Of a stretch of 64,000 nucleotides of DNA, positions 5,464 through 24,700 are shown piece by piece. Below the pieces are notes generated by a model. It searched no databases. It had not been told where the DNA came from and was given only the letters and a program-made list of their open reading frames with translations. Within the stretch, counting starts at the first letter, position 1. Each line of letters begins with the position of its first letter. Origin of the DNA: an uncultured bacterium. GTDB taxonomy: Bacteria; Chloroflexota; UBA5177; JANWHV01. Made by a program: the position numbers and the translations under genes. The stretch is taken from assembly GCA_963827235.1 (NCBI GenBank), contig CAWHAE010000012.1, positions 1,184,001-1,248,000 of the forward strand. The letters are read 5' to 3'.

Positions 5464-5747
5464 CGCTGTCTCCTTTACCTCCACAGGTCCGCCTGGCGTA
5501 GAAGGCGCACCTCGGATCTATGCACAGTATGGGCCAGGATGGCGCTGGCGTCAACCATAGAGGCACGGAACTCCGTCTATCCGGAGAGAAGACCGAGGAA
5601 CACCTCGCGTAGTGGTGAGTTAGTTCAAGTAATAGTGTCGAGCAAGCACCGGTCAAAGCCCAGCCGAGCGTCGCCCAGTGGCCGGCGTCGCTCTAGCTGC
5701 AATACGGTCCAGATAAGCGGGAAACAGTCCCGGCCCACAGGACGGGC

Positions 5748-7975: not shown

Positions 7976-9462
7976 GTGCTGGCACGGTGGCGCCATCTAT
8001 CGAGCTCCTGGGTACCGGGAGCGCCGTCCTGGACAGCATTCTGGGCGGTGGTCTGCCTGCGCGCTCAGTAACCGTGATTGCCGGCCAGCCTGGATCCGGC
8101 AAGACGATTTTCGCGCTGCAACTCCAGTTCCATCTGGCGCGCCAGGGCAAGCGTTGCCTGTATTTCACGACCCTGTCGGAGCCCTCGCTCAAGCTGATCC
8201 ACTACATGCAGCTATTCTCCTTCTTCGATCAGCAACTGCTCGATGAGCAAATCCGCTTTGCGGATCTGGGCTCAGCTATTCGCGCCCGGGGAGCGAGCCA
8301 GGCGCTCGCCGAGATCAGCGCGCGGGTGGAACGCGAGGAGCCGGACCTGGTGATCATCGACAGCTTCAAGGCCATCTACGACCTGCTAGGCCCGCCCGGC
8401 GCCGGCCGCACTTTCGTCTACGATCTGGCCGTGTCGATGGCCGGCTGGGGGGCGACCACGCTGCTGGTCGGCGAGTATGCAGCACAGGATATCGTCACGG
8501 CGCCCGAGTTCTCTATTGCCGACGGCATCATTCGCCTGGGCAACCAACCGCAGGAGCTGACTGCCGTGCGGGTGCTGGAGGTGCTCAAGCTGCGCGGCGC
8601 CAATTGCATGACGGGCCAGCACTTCTTCGAGATCACCGAAGATGGGCTGGTTGTCTACCCACGTGTACGCGCCCCAGAGCTCAGCGTGACGGTGCCAGCC
8701 GGCAGCGCCGAGCGTTCCTCGACCGGTATCACCGGACTGGACGAGCTGCTGCATGGCGGTTTGCCGCACCGCAGCTGCACTCTGGTGCAAGGCGGCACCG
8801 GGACAGGGAAGACTCTATTGGCCCTCAGTTTCCTCATCGACGGCGCTGCACGAGGCAAGCGCGGTGTGATATTCACCCTGGAAGAGACGCCCGAGCAACT
8901 CCACGACATCGCCAGGGGCTTCGGCTGGGACCTGCCGGCGTTGGAGGCCCAGGGGTTGGTGCTCGTCCACTACACGTCACCGGTCGAGCTCTCCACCGAC
9001 CGCTTCCTCAATGTAGCCCGAGGGGTCATTCAGGAGTGGCATGCCCAGAGGGCTGTGCTTGACAGTGTCACGAGTGCAGGGATGGGCGTGTCTTCCGAGC
9101 GGCGGTTCAAGGAGCTGATCTATTCCCTGACGAAGCACTTCCGCGCCTTGGGCGTCACGTCGGTCCTCACCATGGAGGTCCCCGAACTGTTCGGTACGTC
9201 GCAGCTGACCGGCCACGGCGTCTCCTCTATCGCGGATAACGTGATCCTCCTGCGGTTCGTCGAGATAGAAGCGCGCTTGGAGCGGGCGATTTCGGTACTC
9301 AAGGCGCGAGGTGTCCACCACGAGATGGAGCTGCGCCGATTCCGCATCACCGATAGCGGCTTCCAGGTTAATGGGCCGTTCACGCACTATCGTGGCGTGC
9401 TGACGGGCGTGCCGACGCTCGCTCCGGCGGGGCCACAGCAGAGCGAATCAGGCGAGCCATGA
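7972..9462 (+). CDS. Double-domain KaiC-like (RAD55/RecA-fold) ATPase, module A
   Basis: Two P-loops (GQPGSGKT, GGTGTGKT), Walker B motifs (LVIIDSF, AVLDSV), EE in the C domain (TLEETP), KxR motifs (VLKLRG, VLKARG), and GVSSIADN at the KaiC S431/T432 position. GGAGG RBS. Confidence 0.92.
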   Translation: MSAGTVAPSIELLGTGSAVLDSILGGGLPARSVTVIAGQPGSGKTIFALQLQFHLARQGKRCLYFTTLSEPSLKLIHYMQLFSFFDQQLLDEQIRFADLGSAIRARGASQALAEISARVEREEPDLVIIDSFKAIYDLLGPPGAGRTFVYDLAVSMAGWGATTLLVGEYAAQDIVTAPEFSIADGIIRLGNQPQELTAVRVLEVLKLRGANCMTGQHFFEITEDGLVVYPRVRAPELSVTVPAGSAERSSTGITGLDELLHGGLPHRSCTLVQGGTGTGKTLLALSFLIDGAARGKRGVIFTLEETPEQLHDIARGFGWDLPALEAQGLVLVHYTSPVELSTDRFLNVARGVIQEWHAQRAVLDSVTSAGMGVSSERRFKELIYSLTKHFRALGVTSVLTMEVPELFGTSQLTGHGVSSIADNVILLRFVEIEARLERAISVLKARGVHHEMELRRFRITDSGFQVNGPFTHYRGVLTGVPTLAPAGPQQSESGEP

Positions 9463-10710
9463 GCACGGTCTCTGCTGTTCTTGGCACGGCAAGGCCGGTG
9501 ACGCGCGCCCTCTACGACGTAGCGCAGCTCCTGGAAGCGACCCAGAATGCCGAGACGCGCGTGCGAAGAGTGCTGACGCTGTTAGGGGAGATGGTTCCCT
9601 ACGACCAATGCGTGCTTCTCTGTGCCACAGAGGTGGCCATGCCCCGGATGACGTCGCTACCTCCTCTCGAAGAAGGCCCGGCGTCAGAGGTTAGCGCCGC
9701 GCTCGATAGCTTGTTGCAGTTGCTGAGGGAATCCGCGAGCGACCAGGCCGGTGCCGGCCTGCCGTCCTCCGCTGCGGGCGCTTTGAGCGGTGCATCTCAC
9801 CTGGCAGTACCGCTCGTCGCCTTGAACGAGGTGATCGGGATCCTGGCCGTGTGGCAGCGAGTCCCGGACGCCTACGGGGAAGTGGACGTGGGCCTGCTGT
9901 CGGTGGTTGCCGCGCAGCTTGCCTCCTACATGGCCGGACTCACGGCGCGCGATATGCTGGACCGCATGGTCGCAGCGGTGGCGCACGACCTCGGCAATCC
10001 GCTGATGAGTATCTCCGGTGTGAGCCAATTCCTGCAGCGGCACGTAGGACAACTGGGCGAGCCGGAGCGAGAACGATTTGCGCATGGCTTGAAGACCATC
10101 GAGACTACCACGTGGAGCATGACTACGCAACTCAACGAGCTGCTCGACTACGCGCGAGCGCAGACGGGTCGCTTGCTCGATCTGGACACCGAGCCTACCG
10201 ACGTCGTGGCGCTGCTTCGGCAGACAGTGGATGAATACCAGCGCTCGACCGAACGGCATACCCTGGTGCTGCAGACCGCCGAGGAGACGATTGTGACCAT
10301 GGTCGATCCGCGCCATCTGGGGCGTGCGGTCGCCAGTCTCCTCGTCAACGCCATCAAGTACAGTCCGGAGGGGGGACAGATCGTGGTCTCGGTCTCGCGG
10401 GCCGTCGGGATCCGACGGCCGGTGGTTGAGCATAACGATAGCCGACAATGGGCTCGGCATTCCTCGTGCCGACTTGCCGCACCTGTTTGAACAGTATTAC
10501 CGAGCCAGCAACGTAGCAACCACGATTCCCGGCTCCGGCATCGGACTTGCGAACGCTCGTCACACGATCGAGCGGCACAGCGGCACCATCACCATCGATA
10601 GTGCCGAGGGAGCGGGCACGACTGTCACCGTTCAACTGCCGCTGCTTCCGGCCGAGGTGCAGCCGACCTACGTCGCAGGCCAGGCAGCGATAGCGCCGGA
10701 ACAGGGCTGA
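9459..10710 (+). CDS. GAF-domain histidine kinase, split by a +1 frameshift at about 10407-10409 (pseudogene or sequence error)
   Basis: GAF (HLAVPLVALNEVIGIL), H-box (VAHDLGNPL) and N-box (LVNAIKYS) are in one frame. G1 (IADNGLGI), F-box (LFEQYYR) and G2 (GSGIGL) are in the next frame. Removing one G from gtcgggatcc restores VGSDGRWLSITIADNG. Confidence 0.85.
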
Positions 10711-10824: not shown

Positions 10825-11274
10825 TCAATCGTCGGAAGCAGCCATCTCCGCGTTTGCGTCGGGCCACCGGGGCCCAAGGAAGCGGTGCAGCTGAAGCTCG
10901 AGATCGGAGAGATGAAACGGCTTGCGCATGACCACGTCCGCGCGGGCCGCCCGGGCCTGCAGCAGGTTTGCTTCGGTTATCAGGATGATTGGCGGCATCA
11001 CCGACCCATCAAGTGCGGCGTCCTGACGCAACATGGCTATCAGGGAGGCGCCGTTGAGATAGGGCAGCATCAAGTCGAGGATGAGCAAGGCAGGATGGTG
11101 CGCGCGCGCAAGCTCCAGCGCCTGCCGCCCGTGCAGGGCGATCAGCGGCGTGTAGCCCGCTTCGCGCACGATGAAGGCGACGGTCTCCGCCAGCGGCTCC
11201 TCGTCCTCCGCTATCAGCACCAGAGCCGGCTCCCGTGAATCCTGGGATGCTTGCGGGCTGGTCCTGCCGCTCAT
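10825..11274 (-). CDS. Stand-alone response regulator receiver, module B2
   Basis: LIAEDEE, LILDLMLP, ILIT and MRKPF, with no output domain. Paralog of 15260-15733. Confidence 0.88.
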   Translation of the reverse strand: MSGRTSPQASQDSREPALVLIAEDEEPLAETVAFIVREAGYTPLIALHGRQALELARAHHPALLILDLMLPYLNGASLIAMLRQDAALDGSVMPPIILITEANLLQARAARADVVMRKPFHLSDLELQLHRFLGPRWPDANAEMAASDD

Positions 11275-12959
11275 TCCTGCTCCTTGTTCGCTTCGCGGGC
11301 CATCGGCTGCCGGTCTCGTGCTACGGCGCGAGCGGGTGTGGCCGCTGACCGCGCCCGCGACCGCGCTGGGCCGGAATTCACCCTGCTCCCGCTCGATGCC
11401 TGCCAGTAATCCCGGCGCACTCTCCCCGGTCGAGCGCACCGCTATGCCCGCAGGCGCGGCTATCGTGAACTCGCGCAAACTGAGGTCGTGCGCCGAGAAT
11501 CGCATCTTGAGCACCGACAACACCCGGTAGAAGTGCCCGCGATAGATCACGCCCTGCAGCCACAGCACGTTCTCCGCGATGCCGCGAGCTCAGGTCCGTC
11601 TCCAGCTCCAGGTCCGACCCCGCAAGCGGGCCCGTCTCTTTCGTGAACAGCGCGCTGATCCGCCGCCGCTGCAGGGCGGCAATCAATGCCGAGAGGTAGT
11701 TCTGCACCCGCCGCGGACTGCTCCCTTCGCTCACCGCCCGCTCGACCACGGCGATGCTGTCGATGACCAGCCGCCGCGCCCCCGTGCCGTCGAGCGCACC
11801 CAGCAACTGGTCGGCCAGCGCGTCGGCATCCAGCTCTACCGCCGGATAGTGCAGCAGCGTCAGACCGCCTCCGGGCGCCAGCGCGGCCCGCAGCTCCTGG
11901 CCCAGGTTGAAGGCATCCGCCTTGAGCAGCAGCTGGCGCCGGTCCTCGTGAAACCCCAGGAACACTACCGGCTCGCCCGCCCGTACCCCGGCCAGGGCAA
12001 AGTGCAGGCCCAGCAGCGTCTTGCCTGAGCCCCCGCTGCCGATCACGATGGTGGTCGTGGCACGCGTCAGCCCACCCCCAAGCAGCGCATCCAGGGCCGG
12101 AAGGTCAAAGGTCGCCCGCTCGAGCGCTGCCGCCTCGACAGCCGCCGCCGGCTCGCCGTCGTCTCGGTCCGCCGCCGTCACGGCCTGGCGGCGCCTGTCG
12201 CACGACCCGGGCCTCCAGTCGCGGCGAGGTCACTACCCCCGCGCTACTCAGCTCCAGGCTGTGCAGACCCGACAGCGGCGTGGCACCCCGCGCCTTCACC
12301 ACCTCCAACCGCCGCCGCTGCCGCTCGCCGTCCACGCCAAAGTGCAGCCCGATGATCGTGTCCGCCGTCGTCGCCTCCGGAAAGAACTGCGGATCCCGAA
12401 TCTCCGCCTCGGCGGTGATGATGGTGGTCGTCTCCTGCGCGCTCAGCGTGGTGCCGACGTCGAACAGGAACTGCCGCCCTGCCAGCGGCTCCGCGTCGAC
12501 GGCCCGCATGCCGCTGAACCCGTCCAGCACCACCAGGCTCGCCCGCTCCGCCCGCACCAGATGGATCAGCGACTGGCTCGCTCCCGCCAGCCCGGCACTC
12601 AGAAACGGCTGCAGACTGAGCAGCTTCACCCGCTCGCCGATCAGCGTGGGATCGTAGAACGCGTAGGCACTCAGGTGCGCCAGCAGCTTGCTCGGCGCTT
12701 CCGACAGCACGCTGAAGATCAGCACCTGCCGCCCCGCCCGCGCCGCCGCCCAGGCCATCTGCAGGGCCAGCGTCGTCTTCCCCGAGCCCGGCGGCCCCAC
12801 CACGATCGCCAGTGTGCCGCGTGCCAGACCGCCGCCCAGAATCAGGTCGAGGTTCGGCACGCCGCTTGGGTCGACCACCCTCGGCGCCGCGTCCACGACC
12901 GTGCTCGACGTTACCTGCTTGAGCTCATGCATGTAGCCCTCCCCAGTCACTTCACAGCC
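11111..12959. repeat. Direct duplication, copy 2 (RR 5' part plus kaiC-like), partner of 15570-17415
   Basis: Aligns to 15570-17415 at an offset of about 4.46 kb. The kaiC core differs only by scattered substitutions and three 1-nt insertions. Confidence 0.92.
11271..12932 (-). pseudogene. KaiC-like double-domain ATPase, module B2, with three single-base insertions (about 12192, about 11584, 11322)
   Basis: Near-identical to 15730-17388. Length is 1662 vs 1659 nt. The protein is spread over ORFs 12105-12950, 11378-12181 and 10825-11568. It may be intact in vivo if the indels are assembly errors. Confidence 0.85.
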
Positions 12960-13125
12960 GTAGTGTGATTTGCCTCCTCCAACGTGGATGGCATGCTGGG
13001 TTTCCGCTCTGCCTCACCCCCGGGGAAGCACGAGAGCGATCGCGGTTCCGTGCCAGCCGTCTGCGCATGCCGCGGCCTTGCGCGGTGCACAGACTGCTTT
13101 CCACCCAGATAAGGAGCTTGGCCAT
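12947..13125 (-). pseudogene. Deletion remnant of a MerR-PAS histidine kinase gene (first 5 codons fused to the C-terminal tail)
   Basis: Reads MAKLL|IWVESS. The intact paralog starts MAKLLQE and ends HIWVERS...SWHGTVVAIVLP. The remnant has DGWHGTAIALVLP in a shifted frame. Junction at 13110/13111. Confidence 0.85.
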
Positions 13126-13228
13126 CCTGACTTCCCCCAGCTGTACGTGGTGACGCGCATCGGTGGCAACGGGCTCCGCGACTTGACTGAGCACCATTAT
13201 CCAGATGTACCTCACACCTAACTGTACA

Positions 13229-13306
13229 ATCATAGCAGCAACCAGGTACAATAGCCAGAGTCTATTGAGGCTATGTCTTGACACAGTGATTGGACCCGCC
13301 TATACT
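13229..13306. promoter_or_regulatory. Divergent sigma70-type promoter pair with CAATAG-N7-CTATTG palindrome (module B2)
   Basis: Plus strand: TTGACA(13278)-17-TATACT(13301). Minus strand: TGGCTA-17-TATGAT with an extended TG. Palindrome at 13249-13267. Confidence 0.7.
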
Positions 13307-13642
13307 CCAGACACCGCCCCGGCTCTCGCGCCGAAGACGCACCGAGAATGCAACGCGGTACAGCTCTGGGAGGCAGCCGTCAGGGCCTTGGCAGCCACTC
13401 CGAAGAGCGAAGCGGTCTCGGGGCGTGCAGGCCGTGGTGGAGACTCCCGCCACGAGGATCGTCGTGGCACCTGCCGGCATGGGGGCACCATACCGGAAAG
13501 TGATGCCAATCAAGGAGCGAAAACCGGCGACCATGCTTCGACAGCGCTCGGGACCGGCGACGACAACTGGACGCACTCACCGTTGGCGCCAGCAGCTCCA
13601 TTCTGGCTCGACTGCTCGCACGAGTATTCAAGGAGGCACGGC

Positions 13643-13990
13643 ATGCAGCACGGTAACGGTATCCATATTGAGAACAGCGAGCCGCAGAAGAGCGCCCTCG
13701 TCGACGGGCTGCTGCAAGACGGAATCGACCGCGCGGCATCCTGGCGAGCACGCCTACGGGAGTCGACGATGGCACGGCAGGCGGCCGAGCGTCGCTATGC
13801 CCGTGAGGGGTCGGCAGCAAGTGCCAACAGTCCCGAGTCCTCGGCCCTGGCCCGAGAACGAGCGGTTGTTCTCCGGATGGAGTTGACGCGCATCGTGGCC
13901 GAGGATCGGGCTTGGATGCAGCAGCATGGTGTCGAAATGCTCGAGCCTCTCACGCGCAAGCGCCGCTCAGAGAGAAGCACACAGCCTTAG
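13643..13990 (+). CDS. Hypothetical helical protein (115 aa)
   Basis: AAGGAGG RBS before ATG 13643, downstream of the consensus promoter at 13278-13306. No recognisable family. Confidence 0.5.
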   Translation: MQHGNGIHIENSEPQKSALVDGLLQDGIDRAASWRARLRESTMARQAAERRYAREGSAASANSPESSALARERAVVLRMELTRIVAEDRAWMQQHGVEMLEPLTRKRRSERSTQP

Positions 13991-14126
13991 AACGCAGTCC
14001 ACGGTTCTTCCGGCATCGATCTGAGCGCCCGGGCGTCGAACTCCGGTGGGCCCCTCGTGGCCACATCGCAGCCCGCCGGCCACGGGCGATCGCATGGAAT
14101 GCCCATTCGGAGAGCCGGCGCGTGCT

Positions 14127-15263
14127 CTATCGCGTACGGTCCCTCGCCTTTTCGCGTTTCTCCTGGTCACGCACGGTCTGCAATACGGGCTGCGGAGCCC
14201 GTCCGCGCAGCTCGCGCCAGGCTACCGTGCCCACCGCCTGCAACAAGCCGGCCAGCGGAGCAGCAAACAGAGCTCCCCAGATGCCGAACAGCTCGCTCCC
14301 CGCCACCAGGCCGATCAGCGCAGTTGCCGGATGGATGCCGACGGCCTTGCCCATCACGCGCGGGCCCACGATATCACCCTCGATGACGTGCACGACGGCG
14401 AAATAGGCAAGGACCACGAGCGAGAGAACCCAGCCCTGGAAGAACGCGACCAGGACGCATACGGCGCCGGAAACGAGCACGCCGATGATCGGAATGAACT
14501 CCATGAAGAAGGCGAGGACGCCCAGCAAGATGGCATAGGGGACGTGGAGGATCGACATCCCGCCGCCAACCAGTATTCCGATGAGCAGCGCCATGGTCAA
14601 CGTGCCGCGTATGTAGCCGCCCACCACCTGGTTCACAATACCGATCAGCTGGGTTGTGCGCTCGCGATATGCCCCGGGCGTCTCGCGGCGCAACCGCTGG
14701 GATATGCGTGGGCCGTTAGCCGTGAGATAGACACTGAGAATCAGAATGAGAATCATGTCGATGACCGTGTTGACGATCCCGGAGACGATTCCCAACGATT
14801 GCGTTGCAGCGGCCGTGCCCGTGCTCTGGAGATAGGTAATCGCCTGCTGCTGCGTGTGGTCGAGCTTCGCTTGAGTAACCCCGAAGGGTTTGAGCGCCGT
14901 AAGGAGCTGCGGCTCGAAGCGCTTGAGCTGAAGCTGGTATTTCGGCAGGTTGTCGACCAAGCTTGTGACCTGGTTTGCCGCCGTGTCCACGATCAGCGCG
15001 AGCAGCCCGAGAATCACGGCGAAGCCAAGCACGTAGGCCGCGGCAATCGCCAGCGGCCGCGGCATCCAGCGCGCCAACACCTTGACCAGCGGCGTGAGCG
15101 CGAACGCCACGATGCCGCCGAGCAGCAGCACCAGGATGGTCTTGGTGACGTGGGCGAGCAGCCATACGCCGACCACGAGCACGCCGGCCCAGGCCAGGAT
15201 GATCAGCGGCAGGTACAGCGCGCGCTGCCATGCCGCGGGCACCTTGTCAGTATCGGCGCTCAT
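14127..15263 (-). CDS. AI-2E family (PerM/YtvI-like) membrane transporter
   Basis: Multi-TM protein with AFALTPLV, GGYIRG, FIPIIG, IEGDIVGPRVMGKAVGIHP and FGIWGALFAAP. Start overlaps the receiver stop codon. Confidence 0.92.
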   Translation of the reverse strand: MSADTDKVPAAWQRALYLPLIILAWAGVLVVGVWLLAHVTKTILVLLLGGIVAFALTPLVKVLARWMPRPLAIAAAYVLGFAVILGLLALIVDTAANQVTSLVDNLPKYQLQLKRFEPQLLTALKPFGVTQAKLDHTQQQAITYLQSTGTAAATQSLGIVSGIVNTVIDMILILILSVYLTANGPRISQRLRRETPGAYRERTTQLIGIVNQVVGGYIRGTLTMALLIGILVGGGMSILHVPYAILLGVLAFFMEFIPIIGVLVSGAVCVLVAFFQGWVLSLVVLAYFAVVHVIEGDIVGPRVMGKAVGIHPATALIGLVAGSELFGIWGALFAAPLAGLLQAVGTVAWRELRGRAPQPVLQTVRDQEKREKARDRTR

Positions 15264-15733
15264 CGTGATTCAGGGTGCCGATCCGACTGATCGTCCGCGG
15301 ACACCGGGCCCGTCGCGGCAGTGGGTTCGGGTGCCAGGAAGCGCCGCAGCACGACCTCCAGATCCTCAAGATGGAACGGCTTGCGCAGCACCGTGTCGGC
15401 ACCGGCCGCCCGAGCGCGGGGAAGGCTGGCGCCGGTCATCACGACGATCGGCGGCGCGCTCGTGCCGTCGCCCTTGGCATCCGCTCGCAACGCGGCAATG
15501 ACGGCCTCGCCATCCAGGTACGGCAGCATCAGGTCGAGGATGAGCAGCGCCGGACGCCGTGCCCGTGCGAGCTCCAGCGCCTCTCGCCCGTGCAGGGCGA
15601 TCAGCGGCGTGTAGCCCGCTTCGCGCACGATGAAGGCGACGGTCTCCGCCAGCGGCTCCTCGTCGTCGGCGATCAGCACCACGGCCGCCTCCCGTGCATC
15701 CTGGGATGCTTGCGTGCTGGTCGTGCCGCTCAT
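15260..15733 (-). CDS. Stand-alone response regulator receiver, module B1
   Basis: LIADDEE, LILDLMLP, VMTG and LRKPF. ATGA overlap with kaiC. Confidence 0.9.
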   Translation of the reverse strand: MSGTTSTQASQDAREAAVVLIADDEEPLAETVAFIVREAGYTPLIALHGREALELARARRPALLILDLMLPYLDGEAVIAALRADAKGDGTSAPPIVVMTGASLPRARAAGADTVLRKPFHLEDLEVVLRRFLAPEPTAATGPVSADDQSDRHPESR

Positions 15734-17415
15734 GCCTGCTCCCTGTTCGCTTCGCGGGCCATCGCTTGCCGGTCTCGTGCACGGCGCGAGCGGGTGTGGC
15801 CGCTGACCGCGCCCGCGACCGCGCTGGGCCGGAATTCACCCTGCTCCCGCTCGATGCTCGCCAGCAATCCCGGCGCACTCTCCAGCGGACCGCGCACGGC
15901 AATGCCGGCGGGCGCGGCTATCGTGAACTCGCGCAGCGTGAGGTCGTGTGGCGAGTACCGCATCTTGAGCACCGACAACACCCGGTACAGCCGCCCGCGC
16001 AAGATCACGGCCTGCAGCCACACCACGTTCTCCGCTACACCCGAGCTCAGGTCCGTCTCCAGCTCCAGGTCGGACCCGGCAAGCGGGCCGGTCTCCTTCG
16101 TGAACAGCGCGCTGATCCGCCGCCGCTGCAGGGCGGCAATCAATGCCGAGAGGTAGTTCTGCACCCGCCGCGGACTGCTCCCTTCGCTCACCGCCCGCTC
16201 GACCACGGCGATGCTGTCGATGACCAGCCGCCGCGCCCCCGTGCCGTCGAGCGCACCCAGCAACTGGTCGGCCAGCGCGTCGGCATCCAGCTCTACCGCC
16301 GGATAGTGCAGCAACGTCAGACCGCCTCCGGGCGCCAGCGCGGCCCGCAGCTCCTGGCCCAGGTTGAAGGCATCCGCCTTGAGCAGCAGCTGGCGCCGGT
16401 CCTCGTGAAACCCCAGGAACACCACCGGCTCGCCCGCCCGTACCCCGGCCAGGGCAAAGTGCAGGCCCAGCAGCGTCTTGCCTGAGCCCCCGCTCCCGAT
16501 CACGATCGTGGTCGTGGCACGCGTCAGCCCACCCCCAAGCAGCGCATCCAGGGCCGGAAGGTCAAAGGTCGCCCGCTCGAGCGCTGCCGCCTCGACAGCC
16601 GCCGCCGGCTCGCCGTCGTCTCGGTCCGCCGCCGTCACGGCCTGGCGGGCCTGGCGCACGACCCGGGCCTCCAGTCGCGGCGAGGTCACTACCCCCGCGG
16701 CACTCAGCTCCAGGCTGTGCAGACCCGACAGCGGCGTGGCACCCCGCGCCTTCACCACCTCCAACCGCCGCCGCTGCCGCTCGCCGTCCACGCCAAAGTG
16801 CAGCCCGATGATCGTGTCCGCCGTCGTCGCCTCCGGAAAGAACCGCGGATCCCGAATCTCCGCCTCGGCGGTGATGATGGTGGTCGTCTCCTGCGCGCTC
16901 AGCGTGGTGCCCACGTCGAACAGGAACTGCCGCCCTGCCAGCGGCTCCGCGTCGACGGCCCGCATGCCGCTGAACCCGTCCAGCACCACCAAGCTGGCCC
17001 GCTCCGCCCGCACCAGATGGATCAGCGACTGGCTCGCTCCCGCCAGCCCGGCACTCAGAAACGGCTGCAGGCTGAGCAGCTTCACCCGCTCGCCGATCAG
17101 CGTGGGATCGTAGAACGCGTAGGCACTCAGGTGCGCCAGCAGCTTGCTCGGCGCTTCCGACAGCACGCTGAAGATCAGCACCTGCCGCCCCGCCCGCGCC
17201 GCCGCCCAGGCCATCTGCAGGGCCAGCGTCGTCTTCCCCGAGCCCGGCGGCCCCACCACGATCGCCAGTGTGCCGCGTGCCAGACCGCCGCCCAGAATCA
17301 GGTCGAGGTTCGGCACGCCGCTTGGGTCGACCACCCTCGGCGCCGCGTCCACGACCGTGCTCGACGTTACCTGCTTGAGCTCATGCATGTAGTCCTCCCC
17401 AGTCACTTCACAGCC
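15570..17415. repeat. Direct duplication, copy 1
   Basis: Partner of 11111-12959. Confidence 0.92.
15730..17388 (-). CDS. Double-domain KaiC-like ATPase, module B1 (552 aa)
   Basis: Start MHELKQ after GGGGAGG. P-loops GPPGSGKT and GSGGSGKT, Walker B LVVLDG and LVIDS, KxR motifs VVKARG and VLKMRY, and SSGVAEN at the phospho-site region. Confidence 0.92.
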   Translation of the reverse strand: MHELKQVTSSTVVDAAPRVVDPSGVPNLDLILGGGLARGTLAIVVGPPGSGKTTLALQMAWAAARAGRQVLIFSVLSEAPSKLLAHLSAYAFYDPTLIGERVKLLSLQPFLSAGLAGASQSLIHLVRAERASLVVLDGFSGMRAVDAEPLAGRQFLFDVGTTLSAQETTTIITAEAEIRDPRFFPEATTADTIIGLHFGVDGERQRRRLEVVKARGATPLSGLHSLELSAAGVVTSPRLEARVVRQARQAVTAADRDDGEPAAAVEAAALERATFDLPALDALLGGGLTRATTTIVIGSGGSGKTLLGLHFALAGVRAGEPVVFLGFHEDRRQLLLKADAFNLGQELRAALAPGGGLTLLHYPAVELDADALADQLLGALDGTGARRLVIDSIAVVERAVSEGSSPRRVQNYLSALIAALQRRRISALFTKETGPLAGSDLELETDLSSGVAENVVWLQAVILRGRLYRVLSVLKMRYSPHDLTLREFTIAAPAGIAVRGPLESAPGLLASIEREQGEFRPSAVAGAVSGHTRSRRARDRQAMAREANREQA

Positions 17416-18992
17416 ATGGCGCTCGTCACGGCCATGCCGCTCGTCACGGCCGTCTTCTGCCCTGCCCGTTTCGACGTACCGAGCATGCCCGGCTTCTGCG
17501 CTTCTCCGCCCAGGGGAAGCACGATCGCTACCACGGTCCCGTGCCAGCTGCTCGCCGAATCTTCCGCGTCGACAGCGGGCACACTCCGTTCCACCCAGAT
17601 GTGGCCGCCGTGCGCGGACACGATGGCCCGGCACACGTACAGGCCAAGCCCTGCACCCCGTGTCCCGGTCTCGGCATCGGGCGCCCGCCAGTAGCGATCG
17701 AACACGTGCGGCAGGGCGGCCGGCGCGATGCCTATGCCCGTATCCGCCACGCGCACCCACGCCCAGCCGCCGGCCTCATCCGGCGCCGCGTCCTTCGTCA
17801 CCGCCCCGTCGGCCGTCTGCACGGGCGGCGCTGCCGCCATCTCAAGTCGCACCTCGATCGTACCCCCGTCCGGTGAGTACTTGATCGCGTTGCTCAACAG
17901 ATTGTCTAGCACCTGTCGCAGCCGGATGCGATCGCCGGCCACCATCAGCGGTCCAGGCGGCCCCGCGACCGTGACCCGGTGCCGCGACGTCTGCTGCAGC
18001 GCATCTTCGGCCGCCTGCAGCGCCATTGCCGTCAGGTCCACGCCTTCCGGATCCAGGTCGTGAATGAGCAGTCCCTTGGTGGCCCGGGACGCGTCCAGCA
18101 CGGTCTGCATCACCCGAATCAGGTGCTCCGTGCTGCGCTCAGCGACAGCCAGGTGGTGCATGACCTGCTGTGTCGCCGCCTCGTCCCCCGCGCGCAGCCT
18201 GGCGCCGACATGGCGGGCCAGTTGCAGTCGCCCCAGAATGGTGGTCACCGGGTTGCGCAGATCATGCGCCGCCACCGCGAGCCAGTCCTCGGGCAGCAGA
18301 GAGGCATCCGGCGGCATCACGCGGCCCACGCCCACGGCGCCCGTAGACTGGCCCTCCTCGTCCCGCAGCGGTGTGACCGTCCACGACGTCTGCAATTGCT
18401 CGCCTGTCGCGCCGGGCAGCAGCAGCGTTACGTCCCGGTGCCGCGTGCCGGTCTGCGCGGCCCAGCGCAGCGGCAGCGTCTCCAGCGCGAGCGGCGGCAG
18501 CTCGCCGTCGAGGGAGCGCGCGGGTACGTCCGCTTCAAGATGCTCCGGCTCCAGGTGCAGCAGTGCCCGCAGGGCCGGATTCATCGAGGTAACACGTCCT
18601 TCGCGGTCTCCCACGACCACGAGGTCGGCCATTCCCGCGACCACCGCCTGCCAGTATGCCGCATCGCTCATCACCGCCGGTCCGTCGGCGCCCGGCAGGC
18701 CCGCGTAGTCCTCGGGTCCGGGCACCAGGGCGCCGCTGTCGAGCTCCTTCGCCACACGGCGCAGACTGCCCCGCCGCCCCGGCTTCAGCAGGGAGCGCGC
18801 GATGAGCCGCACGCGCGCCATGTCGTCGATCGAATACAAGCGCGTTGCCCTGGGCGATCGCAGGGGCCGCAGGATTCCGGCGTCCTCCCAGGAGCGCAGC
18901 CGCGGCGGCGGCACTCCGGTGAACGCCGCGACGTCGGCTATGAGGAAGGTGGCTTTCTGCTCGAGCACCGTCTCCTGAAGGAGCTTGGCCAT
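17403..18992 (-). CDS. Soluble histidine kinase with N-terminal MerR-type HTH and PAS domain
   Basis: MerR wHTH: FLIADVAAFTGVPPPRLRSWEDAGILRPLRSPRATRLYSIDDMARVRLI. PAS: DLVVVGDREGRVTSMNPA...VTPLRDEEGQSTGAVG. H-box AAHDLRNP, N-box LLSNAIKYS, G1 DTGIGI, G2 GAGLGL. No TM segment. Confidence 0.92.
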   Translation of the reverse strand: MAKLLQETVLEQKATFLIADVAAFTGVPPPRLRSWEDAGILRPLRSPRATRLYSIDDMARVRLIARSLLKPGRRGSLRRVAKELDSGALVPGPEDYAGLPGADGPAVMSDAAYWQAVVAGMADLVVVGDREGRVTSMNPALRALLHLEPEHLEADVPARSLDGELPPLALETLPLRWAAQTGTRHRDVTLLLPGATGEQLQTSWTVTPLRDEEGQSTGAVGVGRVMPPDASLLPEDWLAVAAHDLRNPVTTILGRLQLARHVGARLRAGDEAATQQVMHHLAVAERSTEHLIRVMQTVLDASRATKGLLIHDLDPEGVDLTAMALQAAEDALQQTSRHRVTVAGPPGPLMVAGDRIRLRQVLDNLLSNAIKYSPDGGTIEVRLEMAAAPPVQTADGAVTKDAAPDEAGGWAWVRVADTGIGIAPAALPHVFDRYWRAPDAETGTRGAGLGLYVCRAIVSAHGGHIWVERSVPAVDAEDSASSWHGTVVAIVLPLGGEAQKPGMLGTSKRAGQKTAVTSGMAVTSAMAVK

Positions 18993-19096
18993 CTTGCACT
19001 CTCCTGTTTTGTGTGTGCAGACACGTGACCCGCGTGCACTGCCCTCGAACGAGTCTCCTCGCCATTGTCCAGATGAGCTTCAGACCTATACCATCC

Positions 19097-19174
19097 AGCA
19101 TACCAGCAGCCCGCACCAATAGCCAGAGTCTATTGAGTCTATATCTTGACACGTTGTGTGCACCCGCCCATACT
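19097..19174. promoter_or_regulatory. Divergent promoter pair with CAATAG-N7-CTATTG palindrome (module B1 / desaturase)
   Basis: Plus strand: TTGACA(19146)-17-CATACT(19169). Minus strand: TGGCTA-17-TATGCT. Palindrome at 19117-19135. 34 of 36 nt match 13249-13284. Confidence 0.7.
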
Positions 19175-19307: not shown

Positions 19308-20267
19308 ATGAATACGCTGTTCTCGAGACATGATGCATATCGTATAGATCACCTGATCACGCTCGCGGGCGTGGTCGCACCGTTTGTCGCCCTTCTCTAC
19401 GCCATCCATCAGCTCTGGGATCGTGCGGTAACCGGCCAGGACCTCGTCCTCTGCGCCGTACTGTACGCGCTGACGGGGATGGGCATCACGATTGGATTTC
19501 ACCGCCTGGCGACGCATCGCAGCTTCGTTGCCGCGGTGCCGCTACGCGCCTTGCTGCTCGCATTGGGCTCGATGGCGGTAGAAGGCCCGGTGATCTACTG
19601 GGTATCGACGCATCTGGAGCACCACGCCAAGAGCGATCGCGAAGGCGATCCGCACAGTCCGCGGGACGGCTTCTGGCACGCTCACCTGGGCTGGATGTTC
19701 GGCGCTTTCTCCGCGTCACCCTCGACCTATGGCCGCCATCTGCTGCACGATCGGCTCGTACAGTTCATGTCGCGCACGTTCGTCGGCTGGGTCGTTCTGA
19801 GCTTCGCCGTGCCTGGGCTGCTGGACGGCTGGCTCTCGCGCGGCAGTGCCGGCGGCTTCGGCACGGGATTCTGGCATGGCATACTCTGGGGAGCATTGGT
19901 TCGCATGTGTCTGACCCATCACGTGACCTGGAGCGTGAACTCCATTTGCCACACCTTCGGCCGTCGTCCCTTCGCCGCGACGCGGGATCGCAGTCGCAAC
20001 AACTGGGTCGTGGGACTGCTGGCCTTTGGCGAGGGCTGGCACAACAACCACCATGCATTTCCTTCTGCCGCCTACCACGGCTTCGCCTGGTGGCAATTCG
20101 ACATGTCGGCATATCTGATTCGACTGTTCAAGGTCGCCGGATTGGCCACGAAGGTGCAGATGCCGACTGCTGAAGCCGTGACACGAGAGCGCGCTCGAAC
20201 CAGACCCGCCGACGCGGCGGTTGTCGCCGGGGCCGGCTGGGAGTCTACCGTACGCCGGGCGAGGTAG
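19308..20267 (+). CDS. Delta-9-type acyl-CoA/acyl-lipid fatty acid desaturase
   Basis: His boxes GFHRLATH, HLEHH and GEGWHNNHH, plus DPHSP and TWSVNSICH. GGAGG RBS. Confidence 0.95.
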   Translation: MNTLFSRHDAYRIDHLITLAGVVAPFVALLYAIHQLWDRAVTGQDLVLCAVLYALTGMGITIGFHRLATHRSFVAAVPLRALLLALGSMAVEGPVIYWVSTHLEHHAKSDREGDPHSPRDGFWHAHLGWMFGAFSASPSTYGRHLLHDRLVQFMSRTFVGWVVLSFAVPGLLDGWLSRGSAGGFGTGFWHGILWGALVRMCLTHHVTWSVNSICHTFGRRPFAATRDRSRNNWVVGLLAFGEGWHNNHHAFPSAAYHGFAWWQFDMSAYLIRLFKVAGLATKVQMPTAEAVTRERARTRPADAAVVAGAGWESTVRRAR

Positions 20268-21790: not shown

Positions 21791-24700
21791 TCAGGCTGCA
21801 CCGGGGCAGGTCTTGTGATAGGGGCGATCGCCAAGGTACTGCGCCCATTCCTGGGCCGTGAGATTGCGGTCGGCGACCTCGCACGCGCGTGCCGGCCAGG
21901 AGGCGAGGTCCACGTCCCACTCGTGTATGTTCCCGCTGCCGTCGCCGGCGGCGAGCAGCTTGCCGTTTGGGCTGAAAGCCGCGGCAGTCACCCACTGCGA
22001 CAGCCCGGGCAAGGGAGGCCCTAAGGGCTGGCGCGTCGCGACATCCCACAGCTGCACGGTGGTCTCACCGCCTCCTGTCGCCAGAAGCGTGCCGTCGGGG
22101 CTGAAGGCCACCGCGCTGACAAAACTCGTCAGCTGCAGCGGGGCTCCGTCCGCGCAGGCGCAGGACACCTTCCACAGCCGCACCGTGTAGTCGTCGCCTC
22201 CCGTGGCCAGCAACCTCCCGTCCGGGCTGAAGGCGACGCTATTCACGGCGCCGATGTGTCCGGTCAGCGGCCTGCCGTACGGGCGTCGGTGCACGACATC
22301 CCACAGCCTGACCGTCCCGTCCGACCAGACCGAGGCCAGCGTCTTGCCGTCCGGACTGAAGGCAAGATCCCGCAGCTCACCTTGCCGGTTCTCGATCACC
22401 GGCCGCAGCAGCTTGCCGAGCCGCAGATCCCACAACTCCACCTGGGTGCGGTCGTAGTAGCCTACTGCCGCGATGGAGGCGTCCGGGCTGAGAGCCATCC
22501 GCATCACGGAGTCCGCGGTGGCCGTCAGCGTCGTGCGCAGCGCCTTGACCTGGGTGCCGCGACGCACGTCGTACACCGTGATGAAACCTTCGCCGACCAC
22601 GTCGCCCGCCGTGATCAGCGTCTTGCCGTCGCGGGAAAACGCGCCCGCCGATCCCCACAGCAGGTACGCGCCAGGCCACGTGCCGGACTCCCACGTCGCG
22701 GTGTTCCAGATCTGCGCAGTGCCCGCCCAGCCGCCGGACACCAGCAATCGCCCGTCGGGGCTAAACGTCAGGGATCCGACAATTTCTTGGTCGGGGTCGG
22801 TGAGCAAGGCGGGGCCCGCGAGCGCGGTGGCCACATCCCATGCCGCTATCGTGCCATTGCCGTCCGCGGCGAACAGGGCGGTGTCCTTGGCGCCGAACGC
22901 CAGGACGTTGGGAGCGCCGGTGTGGCTGTCCAGCGGCGTCGCGAGCAGGCGCCGGCCCTTCATATCCCACAGCTCGATGCTGCCACCCATGTCCCCCGAT
23001 GCCAGCAGCGTGCCATCTTGGCTGAAGGCCAGGGCGATCACGGTTTTGGCATGGCCTGTGAGCGCGGTGCCGATCTCGTTTCCGCTCTGGACATCCCAGA
23101 GCCGGATCGTCATGTCCCCGCCACCCGAGGCAAGCATCTTGCCGTCGGGGCTGAAAGCCAGGCTGCCCACGTCATCCACATGGCCCAGCAGGGTCCTCCG
23201 GACCGGCGAGCCCTCCACACTCCAGAGCTGCACGGGGCCGGTATACTCGCCCGCGGCCAGGGTCTTGCCGTCGGGCGCAAAAGCCATGGAGTTCACTTGC
23301 TGTGAGGTTGCGAGCGTGGCCGCGAGCTTCTTCCGCGGCATGTCCCACAGATACACGGCGTTGCCATAGGCGAATGCCGCGGTCTTGCCGTCGGGGCTTA
23401 CGGCGGCGCAATCCACGTGTGTGTAGCCGGGGGAGGGCTCGACGGCGGACAGTGAGAAGACCGGACCGGCCGGCCGCCGCCGCGCGATGTCCCACACCTC
23501 CACGCTCCGCTGATCGTAGCTGGTAGCTGCTATCGTCTTGCCGCCGGCGCCGAACGAGAGGTTATACAGGCCGTGGAGGTGGCTGATCAGCGGTGGCCCT
23601 ACACTGCGGTGGTGCGCCACGTCCCAGAGGTAGATGGCGCTCCCGGGCATTGACGTGGCCCAGGCCAGCGTCCTGCCGTCAGGGCTCACTGCAAGCGCCC
23701 ACGATGTCATGCCCCGGGTTGGCAGGAACGACGTCAGCGCGGCAGGCCGCGCCTCCAGTGTCTGGAGCAGGCCGCCGCGGGCTTCGACGGTGTCGGCCGT
23801 GCGCCGTGCCTCCAGACTGAGCAGCAGCGCCAGGTCATACTGATCCGTCAGGTGGGTGATGGCTTGCGCCGCCAGCTGGCGGGAGAGCGCCGTGGCCTCG
23901 GCGGCAACGGCGTGTGTCCGCTCCGTGCGGGCAGTGGACGCGCTGTGGAGCGCCGCCAGGCTCAGCCCGGCAGCCATCACCAGGAAGATCGCCAGCAGGC
24001 CGACCAGGGCTCGGAGGCGCAGCGCCGCCTGCCGGGCCGTGGCCAGCTCCCGCGCCTGCCGCTCGCGGTCCGCGGCCTCCTGCCGCTGCTCTTCCGCCGC
24101 GCCCGCCTCCAGGAACGCCATTTCCCGCCTGCTCGGCGCGTTCCGCTGCGCCCAGCCGATCGCCTCGGACAGCAACGTCGCCCGGTACAGGCTGTCCGCC
24201 GGTCGCCCCCGCCGCTCCCACTCCGCCGCCGCCGCGCTGATGCCCTGCTGCAGCCGGATATCCTCCCGGGCCTCGTGCAGCCACTCCGCCAACCGGGGCC
24301 ACTCCCGGATCAGCGCCTCGTGGCTCACCTCGATCATGCTCGTGTCGCCGCTCTCGCTGCTGGTCAGCAGGCGCGCCTGGATAAACGCTTCGCTCACCTG
24401 GGCCAGCAGCGCCGTCCGCTCGGGGTCCGGCAGGCGCAGCTCGTCCAGCGCCGCCCGCCGCCGCGTCGTCTCTTGCTCCGTCGGGCCGGGGTCGATCAGG
24501 CGCAGAAAGAGGCCGCGTGCCAGCCGCCGGTGCTCCGGCGCCGGCAGCGCGGCATAGGTGGCCTCGGCCTGCCGGGCCAGGGCTCCTCGCACCCCACCAA
24601 GCTCCTGGTACGCCGCCAGCGTCAGCGTGCACCCGCTCCGGCGCGCGAAGAGCTGGTCCAGGGTGAATTGGAGCAGCGGCAGGGCGCCGGCCTGCCCCCG

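What the first reader, a model, noticed from the sequence alone, without database searches (positions are those of the whole stretch)
13229..19174. 36-bp operator/promoter block conserved between two otherwise diverged module promoters
Seen: caatagccagagtctattgag(g/t)ctat(g/a)tcttgacac occurs at 13249-13284 and 19117-19152 (34/36 identical), while the flanks have visibly diverged. It contains the palindrome CAATAG-N7-CTATTG, which covers the -35 of a leftward promoter (TGGCTA-17-TATGAT/TATGCT) and sits 10 nt from a rightward TTGACA-17-(T/C)ATACT. Known: classical MerR activators use 19-20-nt spacers, whereas MerR-like repressors (HspR, GlnR, CarH) do not need them. Inference: this is a natural footprint of the HTH-kinase binding site, acting repressor-style on both directions. 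It would let one kinase control both modules in trans.
Basis: partly seen in the sequence, partly recalled or inferred. Interest (0 to 1): 0.75.

Follow-up and report, generated by a model that had tools for sequence, protein, structure and literature searches.

The report
Stress-regulon promoter element, not private operator
The conserved 36-base block is real, but it is the upstream half of a promoter type shared by about twenty heat-shock and stress genes in this Chloroflexota bacterium, and a DNA-binding sensor kinase encoded next to it is one plausible but unproven regulator.

Summary
The 36-nt block sits at 13249-13284 and 19117-19152 (34/36 identical) and contains CAATAG-N7-CTATTG, 10 nt upstream of TTGACA-17-YATACT.

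It is not private to two modules. The modules are segmental duplicates, and the genome holds two more cassette copies. The block is also the cassette version of a promoter class: tATAG-nTAGAG-gATAtTT...CTATgg-TTGACA-N17-gCCCATACT. The class has about 22 members in two genomic islands, three of them in this window. It drives dnaK-dnaJ-hspR-like, hsp20, pspA-ftsH, SPFH, PRC-barrel, DUF5335, a desaturase and others.

Across the class, the conserved parts are ATAG, GAG, TAT and the -35/-10. The right arm of the dyad is not conserved. The perfect dyad occurs only in the three C12 cassette copies (modules 1 and 2, and a third copy about 38 kb upstream).

The element and the MerR-PAS-kinase are both confined to one genus.

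Best reading (about 0.4): it is the operator of a MerR-type repressor, most likely the adjacent kinase. Every readable kinase upstream region carries an ATAG-type element. An HspR paralogue, or an element with no dedicated factor, remain serious rivals.

Module 1 is decaying: its kinase is deleted and its KaiC-like gene is frameshifted.

The parts
13249..13284 (+). 36-nt block, cassette copy c1 (module 1): upstream element plus the -35 of the rightward class promoter
   Evidence: 34/36 identical to copy c2
13249..13267 (.). perfect dyad CAATAG-N7-CTATTG (c1)
13278..13306 (+). rightward promoter TTGACA-17-TATACT (c1)
   Evidence: 11/12 matches
   Evidence: read; -35 is 3/6; not returned by the scan
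13769..13990 (+). small ORF (73 aa, MARQAAERRYAR...) driven by c1; an upstream ATG at 13643 with an AAGGAGG ribosome-binding site is an alternative start
   Evidence: 47% identical orthologue behind a class promoter in G001
12952..13125 (-). 57-codon stub that keeps only the first five codons (MAKLL) of the HTH-kinase; about 1.4 kb of the kinase is deleted in module 1
10825..12950 (-). module 1 KaiC-like gene, broken by 1-bp indels near 12192 and 11584, and a receiver gene fused in frame after an indel near 11322
19117..19152 (+). 36-nt block, cassette copy c2 (module 2)
19117..19135 (.). perfect dyad CAATAG-N7-CTATTG (c2)
19146..19174 (+). rightward promoter TTGACA-17-CATACT (c2)
   Evidence: 10/12 matches
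   Evidence: read; not returned by the scan
19308..20267 (+). fatty-acid desaturase driven by c2
   Evidence: PF00487, E 8.7e-21
17403..18992 (-). MerR-HTH / PAS / HisKA / HATPase_c kinase (529 aa), the only intact copy on this contig
15730..17388 (-). KaiC-like double-domain ATPase (about 552 aa from MHELKQ)
   Evidence: same length as the C17 and G001 copies
15260..15733 (-). receiver-only response regulator (157 aa)
14127..15263 (-). AI-2E family transporter, last gene of the leftward operon
5526..5580 (-). third class promoter in the window (ATAGacGGAG...CTATGG-TTGACG-N17-gCCCATACT), driving a PRC-barrel gene that starts at 5463

Best explanation
The 36-nt block is the upstream regulatory element plus the -35 hexamer of a genus-specific promoter class that drives a heat-shock/general-stress regulon. 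The class reads ATAG at -27 to -24 from TTGAC, GAG at -20 to -18, TAT at -5 to -3, then TTGACA-N17-gCCCATACT. In the cassettes that descend from the kinase operon's divergent promoter, the imperfect ATAG...TAT element is sharpened into a perfect 6-N7-6 dyad.

The core promoters are near-consensus and should be strong on their own, so control is most likely negative. A MerR-type winged-HTH protein would bind from about -63 to -37, abutting the -35, and block RNA polymerase. In the kinase cassette the same site covers the weak leftward -35, giving autorepression.

The most likely binder is the adjacent MerR-PAS-histidine kinase. It would dimerise through its kinase core rather than a MerR coiled coil. 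Its DNA binding would be released or altered by a stress signal passed through the PAS domain, the KaiC-like ATPase and the receiver-only partner.

Shown: the sequence architecture, the class, the gene content, and the taxonomic distribution. Inferred: binding, which protein binds, the sign of regulation, and the signal.
For: Class membership:
- Anchoring only on TTGAC-N18-YATRCT gives 50 genome hits. 22 of them lie in C12:1154-1203 kb or C17:74-141 kb.
- 14 of those 22 have ATAG 21-24 nt upstream of TTGAC, against 0 of the 28 elsewhere.
- The profile of the 18 non-cassette members matches the block at every conserved position.
- The window has 3 members against 0.03 expected.

Regulon content: HSP70-DnaJ-HspR-like, HSP20, PspA/PspAA followed by a glycosyltransferase gene and FtsH, Band_7, PRC-barrel (several), DUF5335, desaturase, LPG_synthase_TM.

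Conservation across species: G001 orthologues of two regulon genes sit behind class promoters.

Kinase link:
- The perfect dyads occur only in the three C12 cassette copies c1-c3.
- An ATAG-type element lies upstream of 4 of 4 readable kinase loci: c2, the C17 paralogue, G001 and G003. In G003 it is the only such promoter found.
- The strict class pattern occurs only in genomes that have the kinase: own 6, G001 2, G003 1. It gives 0 in 36 non-genus genomes, and the controls give 0.
- The HTH is strongly conserved across the 22 family clusters. Its closest solved relatives are CarH, LitR, CarA and GlnR/TnrA.
- The receiver partner has no output domain, while the kinase has a DNA-binding domain.
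Against: - No binding data exist, and no RNA data are available.
- The right arm of the dyad is not conserved across the class or in G001's orthologous promoter, so a symmetric dimer site is not the class-wide feature.
- The exact dyad and the cassette DNA were not found in four congeners.
- The element's position and orientation relative to the kinase gene differ between the window's genome, G001 and G003.
- G002 has the kinase but gave no strict class hit. It is 83% complete in 720 contigs.
- The genus is effectively one phylogenetic observation.
- An HspR paralogue in the class-driven dnaK operon is an equally conventional candidate.
- The 97-100% identical tract in the neighbouring KaiC-like gene shows gene conversion acts here, so some of the block's identity could be non-selective.
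- C17 may come from a co-binned relative: the contamination estimate is 9%.
Confidence: 0.4

Rival explanations
1. The class element is the operator of the HspR-like MerR paralogue encoded after dnaK-dnaJ in the C17 island. The kinase operon would then be merely a member of, or neighbour to, that regulon. The cassette dyad would be a high-affinity variant of a diverged HAIR.
For: - A 91-aa MerR protein lies directly after dnaJ in an operon driven by a class promoter. It matches NCBIfam HspR at E 3.7e-13.
- HspR represses chaperone operons through an N7-spaced inverted repeat and can occupy 70-80 bp operators (PMC6102357, passages read).
- No classical HAIR is seen at the island dnaK promoter. 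The canonical dnaK-dnaJ-hspR on C14 has its own HAIR-like site over its -35.
- The paralogue is genus-specific: 87% identical in G001, 65% in G002 and G004, and 35-47% elsewhere.
Against: - The NCBIfam score is 49 bits against a cutoff of 105.
- The paralogue's own operon carries the class element in only 1 of 3 genomes read: the window's genome yes, G001 no, G004 no.
- G004 has the paralogue but no detected kinase, and gave no class element. G003 has the kinase and a class promoter on it, but no close paralogue was found. All of these are incomplete MAGs.
- The perfect dyads sit at kinase-derived cassettes, not at dnaK.
Confidence: 0.2
2. No dedicated repressor reads the block. The conserved upstream AT-rich element, the gCCCATACT -10 and the conserved start region would then reflect one of three things: recognition by a particular sigma factor or the RNA polymerase alpha subunit (UP-like), a different regulator such as the REC-GerE protein in the C12 island, or propagation of one promoter module by duplication.
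For: - Conservation extends from about -45 to +15, including GCC before the -10 and GGAGGAnCCC after it. That is more than a single factor's site.
- The class-wide element is asymmetric.
- The -10 context resembles the sigma-32 CCCCATnT geometry (recalled, not tested).
- An ECF sigma gene lies divergent from one class promoter, and a REC-GerE regulator lies in the C12 island.
- Many class members precede paralogous PRC-barrel or DUF5335 genes.
Against: - The sigma factor is ECF/BldN-like, and such factors do not usually read TTGACA/CATACT (recalled).
- The class drives at least ten unrelated gene families, and the association is kept in G001 orthologues. That argues for function rather than mere copying.
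- UP elements are not known to carry fixed ATAG/GAG words (recalled).
Confidence: 0.25
3. The extra identity of the 36-nt block between modules 1 and 2 is a by-product of shared ancestry and short-tract gene conversion. The perfect palindrome itself would then have no function beyond that of the class element.
For: - A 1.2-kb tract in the adjacent KaiC-like genes is 97-100% identical, while flanks are 65-93%.
- The block's excess conservation is only p about 0.02, and vanishes when copy c4 is included.
- Degenerate dyads are not enriched.
- The right arm differs from the class consensus at only two positions.
Against: - Copy c3, which is not next to a KaiC gene, also keeps 33/36 of the block and the exact dyad arms while its spacer changed (AG to GC).
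- The leftward -10 is kept only where a leftward gene or stub exists.
Confidence: 0.1

Closest known systems
HspR / HAIR heat-shock repression (Streptomyces, Helicobacter)
   Same: A MerR-family winged-HTH regulator. An N7-spaced inverted repeat at promoters of dnaK and other chaperone genes. The regulator gene is linked to its regulon. Extended operators around or upstream of the -35 are known (PMC6102357, passages read).
   Different: The sequence is unrelated to CTTGAGT-N7-ACTCAAG. The class-wide element is asymmetric. The candidate binder is either a diverged 91-aa paralogue or a kinase fusion. A separate HAIR-like site exists at the canonical dnaK on C14.
MerR / PmerT-type divergent operator-promoter
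   Same: The regulator gene is transcribed divergently from its target, with one shared site in the intergenic region (c2).
   Different: The dyad lies upstream of the -35 rather than inside a 19-20-nt spacer, and the spacer here is 17 nt. No coiled-coil or effector domain of the MerR type was detected.
CarH / LitR and GlnR / TnrA (MerR-family members without the long coiled coil)
   Same: These are the closest solved relatives of the kinase's HTH: CarH 5c8d at E 2.5e-5, LitR 3whp, CarA 2jml, and GlnR at E 3e-4. Oligomerisation is supplied by another domain. A 5-N7-5 geometry like TGTNA-N7-TNACA, and operators at the -35, are recalled and were not tested.
   Different: There is no B12-binding domain. 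The C-terminal part is PAS-HisKA-HATPase_c. The operator words differ.
ChiS of Vibrio cholerae (sensor kinase that binds DNA itself)
   Same: A sensor-kinase-type protein that carries its own DNA-binding domain and regulates a promoter directly (PMC8092284, abstract read).
   Different: ChiS has a C-terminal helix-sheet-helix domain and is proteobacterial. Here an N-terminal MerR winged HTH sits on a protein in which Pfam found no membrane domain (no transmembrane prediction was run), partnered with a KaiC-like ATPase. DNA binding is not shown.
KaiC-like ATPase / kinase / receiver modules outside cyanobacteria
   Same: A double-domain KaiC homologue encoded with a histidine kinase and a receiver. 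Such modules are discussed as stress or timing devices in the papers listed (listing only).
   Different: No KaiB or KaiA gene was noticed in the operon. The kinase carries a DNA-binding domain. The link to a defined promoter class is new.

Membership tests
Sigma-70-type promoter | -35 and -10 hexamers near consensus, with 16-18 nt spacing | tested here: met
   TTGACA-17-TATACT (11/12) and TTGACA-17-CATACT (10/12); shuffles give a mean of 0.2
   TGGCTA is 3/6, and no minus-strand site passes the scan. The -10 TATGMT is kept only where a leftward gene exists, so a weak or factor-dependent promoter stays possible.
Classical MerR-activator operator (MerR, CueR, SoxR type) | Dyad located between the -35 and -10 of a promoter with a 19-20 nt spacer | tested here: not met
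   The dyad ends 10 nt upstream of the -35, and the spacer is 17 nt
Classical MerR-activator operator (MerR, CueR, SoxR type) | Regulator transcribed divergently from the regulated promoter | tested here: met
   In c2 the kinase (17403-18992, minus strand) and the desaturase (19308-20267, plus strand) flank the block
HspR / HAIR | Inverted repeat matching CTTGAGT-N7-ACTCAAG | tested here: not met
   The arms are CAATAG/CTATTG. HAIR-like sites are not enriched (120 against 87-631 in controls), and none lies at the island dnaK. The N7 spacing is shared.
HspR / HAIR | The site lies at promoters of chaperone genes, and an hspR gene sits in the dnaK operon | tested here: inconclusive
   The class element precedes dnaK-dnaJ-hspR-like and hsp20. 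The hspR-like protein scores 49 bits against a cutoff of 105, and its operon lacks the element in G001 and G004.
MerR-family HTH (kinase N-terminus) | Winged HTH matching the MerR profiles | tested here: met
   PF13411 at E 8.5e-8 (32.6 bits, above the 21.6 cutoff). PF00376 at 27.1 bits, just below 28.2. Orthologues pass both profiles.
CarH / LitR photoreceptor regulators | B12-binding domain C-terminal to the HTH | tested here: not met
   Pfam finds PAS, HisKA and HATPase_c only. The similarity is limited to the HTH.
Histidine kinase of a two-component system | HisKA phospho-acceptor and HATPase_c domains | tested here: met
   PF00512 at E 1.7e-8 and PF02518 at E 9.9e-27
DNA-binding sensor kinases (ChiS-like in function) | The kinase itself binds promoter DNA | not testable with these tools
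   Only the domain architecture and site association are available. The ChiS-family domain itself is absent.

The most novel reading that the evidence does not exclude
A cytoplasmic histidine kinase with an N-terminal MerR-type winged HTH is itself the master repressor of a genus-specific heat-shock/general-stress regulon of about 20 promoters. It would read the ATAG-GAG-TAT element directly. A KaiC-like ATPase and a receiver-only protein would set its DNA-binding state. This would be a DNA-binding kinase circuit with no conventional output response regulator.
Probability: 0.35. Interest if true: 0.75.

Novelty: new variant of a known kind. Interest (0 to 1): 0.55.

Why it matters
If the kinase binds these sites, this would be a second, unrelated example, after ChiS, of a sensor kinase that regulates promoters directly. 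It would be coupled to a KaiC-like ATPase, whose roles outside cyanobacteria are poorly understood.

Whoever the binder is, the work defines a previously undescribed stress-regulon promoter signature in an uncultured Chloroflexota genus. I found no paper on it: the searches were read as listings only. It gives a concrete, testable set of about 22 promoters and two candidate regulators.

It also shows that a "phylogenetic footprint" between two paralogous promoters can mislead. The palindrome that caught the eye is the least conserved part of the wider element.

Tried and rejected
- Rfam scan of the whole window at gathering threshold: 0 matches, so the conserved leaders are not a known RNA family.
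- Sequencing runs: no RNA holder listed. Only one DNA metagenome run was returned, holding 0.06 of the words. Read laying was not used, so transcript starts could not be mapped.
- Metagenome locus scan with the family alignment: the 80 loci kept matched only the generic kinase core (residues about 91-520). None covered the MerR N-terminus, so it yielded no further orthologous upstream regions.
- Genome-contig scan: only two loci covered the N-terminus, corresponding to G003 and G002. The G002 contig starts inside the gene, so it has no upstream DNA.
- Cassette DNA and the exact dyad in four congeners: not found.
- DUF5335 upstream regions in L047 and G003 L045: no class element.
- The single 1-mismatch dyad, at C12:788312, lies upstream of an ORF whose N-terminus I read as MurA-like by eye. 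I judged it a chance match, in line with the controls.
- Alternative sigma idea: the island sigma factor is ECF/BldN-like, which is a poor fit to TTGACA/CATACT. Not pursued further.
- Phylogenetic profile to separate the kinase from the HspR paralogue: both are genus-restricted, so it does not discriminate.
- Earlier notes of this scan: three look-ups returned nothing.
- Structure prediction and complex prediction were not used. No claim of protein-protein binding is made.
Full report
**1. Observation.**
The block caatagccagagtctattgag(g/t)ctat(g/a)tcttgacac is at 13249-13284 and 19117-19152, with 34 of 36 bases identical. The 19-nt dyad CAATAGCCAGAGTCTATTG is identical in both copies. It occurs twice in the window against 0.01 expected. 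It ends 10 nt before TTGACA-17-TATACT (13278-13306) and TTGACA-17-CATACT (19146-19174). The consensus scan returns both, at 11/12 and 10/12 matches, against 0.2 promoter-like sites per shuffle. Its -35 matches only 3 of 6, and no minus-strand site passes the scan.

**2. Context: the two modules are segmental duplicates, and one is decaying.**
Module 2 reads leftward as follows:
- a 529-aa MerR-HTH/PAS/HisKA/HATPase_c kinase (17403-18992)
- a KaiC-like double-domain ATPase (15730-17388)
- a receiver-only response regulator (15260-15733)
- an AI-2E transporter (14127-15263)

Its rightward gene is a fatty-acid desaturase (19308-20267).

Module 1 aligns with module 2 but is damaged:
- It lacks about 1.4 kb, so only a 57-codon stub remains that keeps the kinase's first five codons.
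- Its KaiC-like gene carries 1-bp indels near 12192 and 11584.
- A third indel near 11322 fuses the gene in frame to the receiver gene.

A 1.2-kb stretch of the two KaiC-like genes is 97-100% identical, while flanks are 65-93%. Gene conversion therefore acts here.

The promoter regions are homologous over about 119 nt at 76% identity. The -35 (6/6), the -10 (5/6), 12/17 of the spacer and a CATTRTCCAKATG block in the left leader are conserved as well. Within that region the block's excess conservation is modest. Permutation gives p about 0.023 for the pair, 0.014 for three copies (32/36 invariant) and 0.21 for four copies (25/36).

**3. More copies.**
The genome is 7.98 Mb, 65% GC, in 21 contigs, with 95.9% completeness and a 9% contamination estimate. 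It holds a third exact dyad at C12:1159175 with a changed spacer (CCGCAGT). That copy carries the whole cassette but has no leftward gene, and it drives a DUF5335 gene ahead of a CIRCE site and groES.

A fourth, about 70% identical cassette lies on contig C17. It keeps TTGACAC-17-CATACT and a fragment of the KaiC start, but reads CTATAGCTAGAGTATACTG where the dyad should be. It drives a DUF5335 paralogue.

A kinase paralogue at C17:92093 is frameshifted near residue 83. Its upstream region keeps the 19-mer position as CTATAACTAGAGCATACTG, but has lost the rightward -35 and -10, and there is no rightward gene.

The leftward -10 candidate tracks gene presence. It is TATGCT, TATGAT or TATCCT where a leftward gene or stub exists, and degraded (TTGGGC, CATTCT) where none does.

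The exact dyad occurs 3 times against 0 for each of ten composition-matched control dyads. Degenerate versions are not enriched: 4 against a mean of 3.3 at up to 1 mismatch, and 59 against 72.6 at up to 2. The three exact sites share ancestry and are not independent.

**4. The decisive finding: a promoter class.**
One 2-mismatch hit, 2.5 kb from the C17 cassette, turned out to be CAATAG-N22-TTGACT-N17-CATGCT upstream of a PRC-barrel gene.

Anchoring only on TTGAC-N18-YATRCT gives 50 hits in the genome:
- 22 lie in two regions, C12:1154-1203 kb (10) and C17:74-141 kb (12).
- 14 of those 22 carry ATAG 21-24 nt upstream of TTGAC. None of the 28 hits elsewhere does.
- The controls were low. Other spacings gave 0 and 3 hits, two scrambled -10 words gave 0 each, and a reversed -35 gave 6, against 29 for the matched pattern.

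The profile of the 18 non-cassette members reads tATAG.taGAG.at.tT.c...tAT.g-TTGACA-N14-GCCCATACT, followed by a conserved GGAGGAnCCC. The cassettes have one extra base.

The positions that form the right arm of the dyad are poorly conserved in the class. The cassette right arm differs from the class consensus (ATATTt) at only two bases.

The window holds three class members, at 5526-5554 (minus strand), 13278-13306 and 19146-19174, against 0.03 expected.

**5. What the class drives (Pfam; ORF choice).**
- dnaK-dnaJ plus a small MerR protein
- hsp20
- pspA/PspAA, followed by a glycosyltransferase and ftsH
- SPFH/Band_7
- PRC-barrel/DUF2171 proteins (several)
- DUF5335 (two)
- the desaturase
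- LPG_synthase_TM-like membrane proteins
- a YspA-type SLOG protein
- a methyltransferase
- an ABC sugar-binding protein
- a 73-aa ORF behind module 1 (13769-13990)

For four of the 22 promoters my automatic ORF choice was clearly spurious, and the first real gene is uncertain. The set looks like a heat-shock/general-stress regulon housed in two islands.

It is conserved across species. In G001, class promoters precede the orthologue of the 73-aa ORF (47% identity, E 3e-13), the LPG_synthase_TM-like gene, a PRC-barrel gene and others. In G001 the orthologous promoter of the 73-aa ORF keeps ATAG-GG-AGAG, TAT, TTGACA and CATACT, but not the right arm of the dyad.

**6. Distribution.**
The strict pattern ATAGNNAGRG-N15-19-TTGAC-N17-19-CATRCT gives 6 hits in the window's genome, 2 in G001, 1 in G003, and 0 in G002 and G004. 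It gives 0 in 36 genomes outside the genus. The reversed-pattern controls give 0 in all 41 genomes.

The MerR-kinase is equally restricted:
- N-terminal matches occur in the window's genome (two loci), G001, G002 and G003.
- None occurs in G004 or in 16 other genomes of the class.
- Only 22 clusters carry the architecture in the 5.8-billion-protein collection.

One genome in these tallies, G018, is unpublished. Because the relatives are kin, the co-occurrence counts as about one observation.

**7. Who binds?**

*Candidate A: the kinase.*
- Its HTH is strongly conserved across the family, with RLRSWE invariant.
- Its closest solved relatives are CarH (E 2.5e-5), LitR, the CarA DNA-binding domain and GlnR/TnrA. 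These MerR-family members lack the long coiled coil.
- The receiver partner has no output domain.
- The perfect dyads exist only in kinase-derived cassettes.
- An ATAG-type element lies upstream of all four readable kinase loci, although at different positions and orientations. In G003 the kinase operon is itself driven by CCAATAGGGAGAG-N17-TTGACT-17-CATACT (CAATAG 23 nt before TTGAC, as in the cassettes), the only such promoter found there. In G001, ATAGTGAGGATATTAT overlaps a TGcTATAAT.

*Candidate B: a 91-aa HspR-like protein encoded after dnaJ in the class-driven dnaK operon.*
- It matches NCBIfam HspR at E 3.7e-13, with 49 bits against a cutoff of 105.
- HspR-like proteins occur in 32 of 41 relatives, but this copy is a genus-specific paralogue. 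A second, "universal" copy sits in a canonical dnaK-dnaJ-hspR operon on C14, whose promoter has a HAIR-like CTTGACA-N7-GCTCAAG over its -35.
- A third dnaK, on C16, lies near a CIRCE site.
- The paralogue's own operon carries the class element only in the window's genome. In G004 (paralogue present, kinase not found) and in G001 (dnaK reduced to a 99-codon fragment) it does not.
- G003 has the kinase and a class promoter on it, but no close paralogue was found.

These contrasts tilt toward the kinase. They rest on single, incomplete MAGs (83-92% complete).

*Candidate C: the ECF/BldN-like sigma factor next to one class promoter.* It fits the hexamers poorly (the promoter preference of ECF factors is recalled).

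The two MerR-type HTHs share only the generic helix-2 motif.

**8. Mechanism proposed.**
The core promoters are near consensus, so negative control is the economical reading, as for HspR, HrcA and CtsR regulons (recalled). A winged-HTH dimer or higher oligomer bound from about -63 to -37 would abut the -35. Extended, cooperative HspR operators are documented in H. pylori (PMC6102357, passages read). In c2 the same site covers the weak leftward -35, which would give autorepression. Release on stress through the PAS domain, the KaiC-like ATPase and the receiver is inference only. The sign of regulation is not shown. An activator role at about -55 cannot be excluded.

**9. Comparison and novelty.**
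The arrangement works like HspR/HAIR and like the divergent MerR operator. It fails the defining sequence or position tests of both (see the membership table).

The kinase would be a functional analogue of ChiS, a sensor that binds DNA itself (PMC8092284, abstract read), but with an unrelated DNA-binding domain.

I found no paper describing a MerR-fused kinase, or an HspR-type regulon, in Chloroflexota:
- 23 papers held MerR + histidine kinase + KaiC. I saw the listing only.
- the phrase "DNA-binding histidine kinase" occurred in none of the 15 listed papers.
- 6 papers held HspR + Chloroflexi. I saw the listing only.

I rate it a new variant of a known kind: a lineage-specific stress-regulon operator/promoter, with a possibly new type of regulator.

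**10. Caveats.**
- There are no expression or binding data.
- Contig C17 may belong to a co-binned relative (contamination estimate 9%). Its copies would then be orthologues rather than paralogues. This would not change the class, but it would change the copy count per genome.
- The frameshifts could be assembly errors.
- Gene starts are provisional.

Noticed in passing
window 10825-13125 against 15260-18992: Module 1 is a decaying copy of module 2. About 1.4 kb of the kinase is deleted, and three 1-bp indels break the KaiC-like frame and fuse it to the receiver gene. Meanwhile 11668-12868 is 97-100% identical to 16125-17324, which looks like a gene-conversion tract.
   Followed up: yes
window 5526-5580 (minus strand), gene starting at 5463: A third class promoter in the window drives a 168-aa PRC-barrel protein.
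   Followed up: yes
window 7942-10490 (plus strand): A further KaiC-like ATPase (506 aa) is followed by a GAF-HisKA kinase whose HATPase_c match stops after 33 of 111 profile positions. This may be another truncated signalling module.
   Followed up: no
window 13307-13420; L001 1555-1690; L005 3715-3845 (minus strand): The rightward 5' leader (cagacaccgcc..cggctctcgcgcc..gcaacgcggt..) is conserved among cassettes c1, c3 and c4 (78/107 between c3 and c4). No Rfam family matches in the window.
   Followed up: partly
window 13195-13214 and 19063-19082; also the other cassette copies: A CATTRTCCAKATGAGCTTCA block in the left leader is conserved in all copies, including those with no leftward gene. 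On the other strand it reads TGGAYAAT, which could be an alternative leftward -10.
   Followed up: partly
G000 C14:329509-332900; C16:137865-141625; C17:114563-117953: There are three dnaK systems with three different control signatures. C14 has a HAIR-like dyad over its -35 together with a universal HspR. C16 has a CIRCE site nearby. C17 has the class promoter together with the HspR paralogue.
   Followed up: partly
G000 C12:1159897 (L222, about 13897): A CIRCE-like site (2 mismatches) lies between the DUF5335 gene and groES, so groES/EL probably follows HrcA rather than the class element.
   Followed up: no
the 18 non-cassette class promoters, first 15 nt after the -10: A conserved GGAGGAnCCC lies just downstream of the -10, in the start region of the transcripts. 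Its function is unknown, and it is absent from the cassette copies.
   Followed up: no
L272 3414-3713 (G001): In G001 the dnaK ahead of dnaJ and the hspR paralogue is reduced to a 99-codon C-terminal fragment.
   Followed up: partly
window 21791-26210 (minus strand): A 1083-aa WD40-repeat protein with many tandem repeats lies next to a 373-aa ORF that, by eye, begins like an XRE-type HTH and carries a P-loop. No family scan was run on either. They appear unrelated to the finding.
   Followed up: no
whole genome G000: The genome is 8.0 Mb against 4.4-5.4 Mb for congeners, with a 9% contamination estimate. The C12 and C17 islands share gene families at about 70-87% identity, so C17 might come from a second, related strain in the bin.
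   Followed up: no
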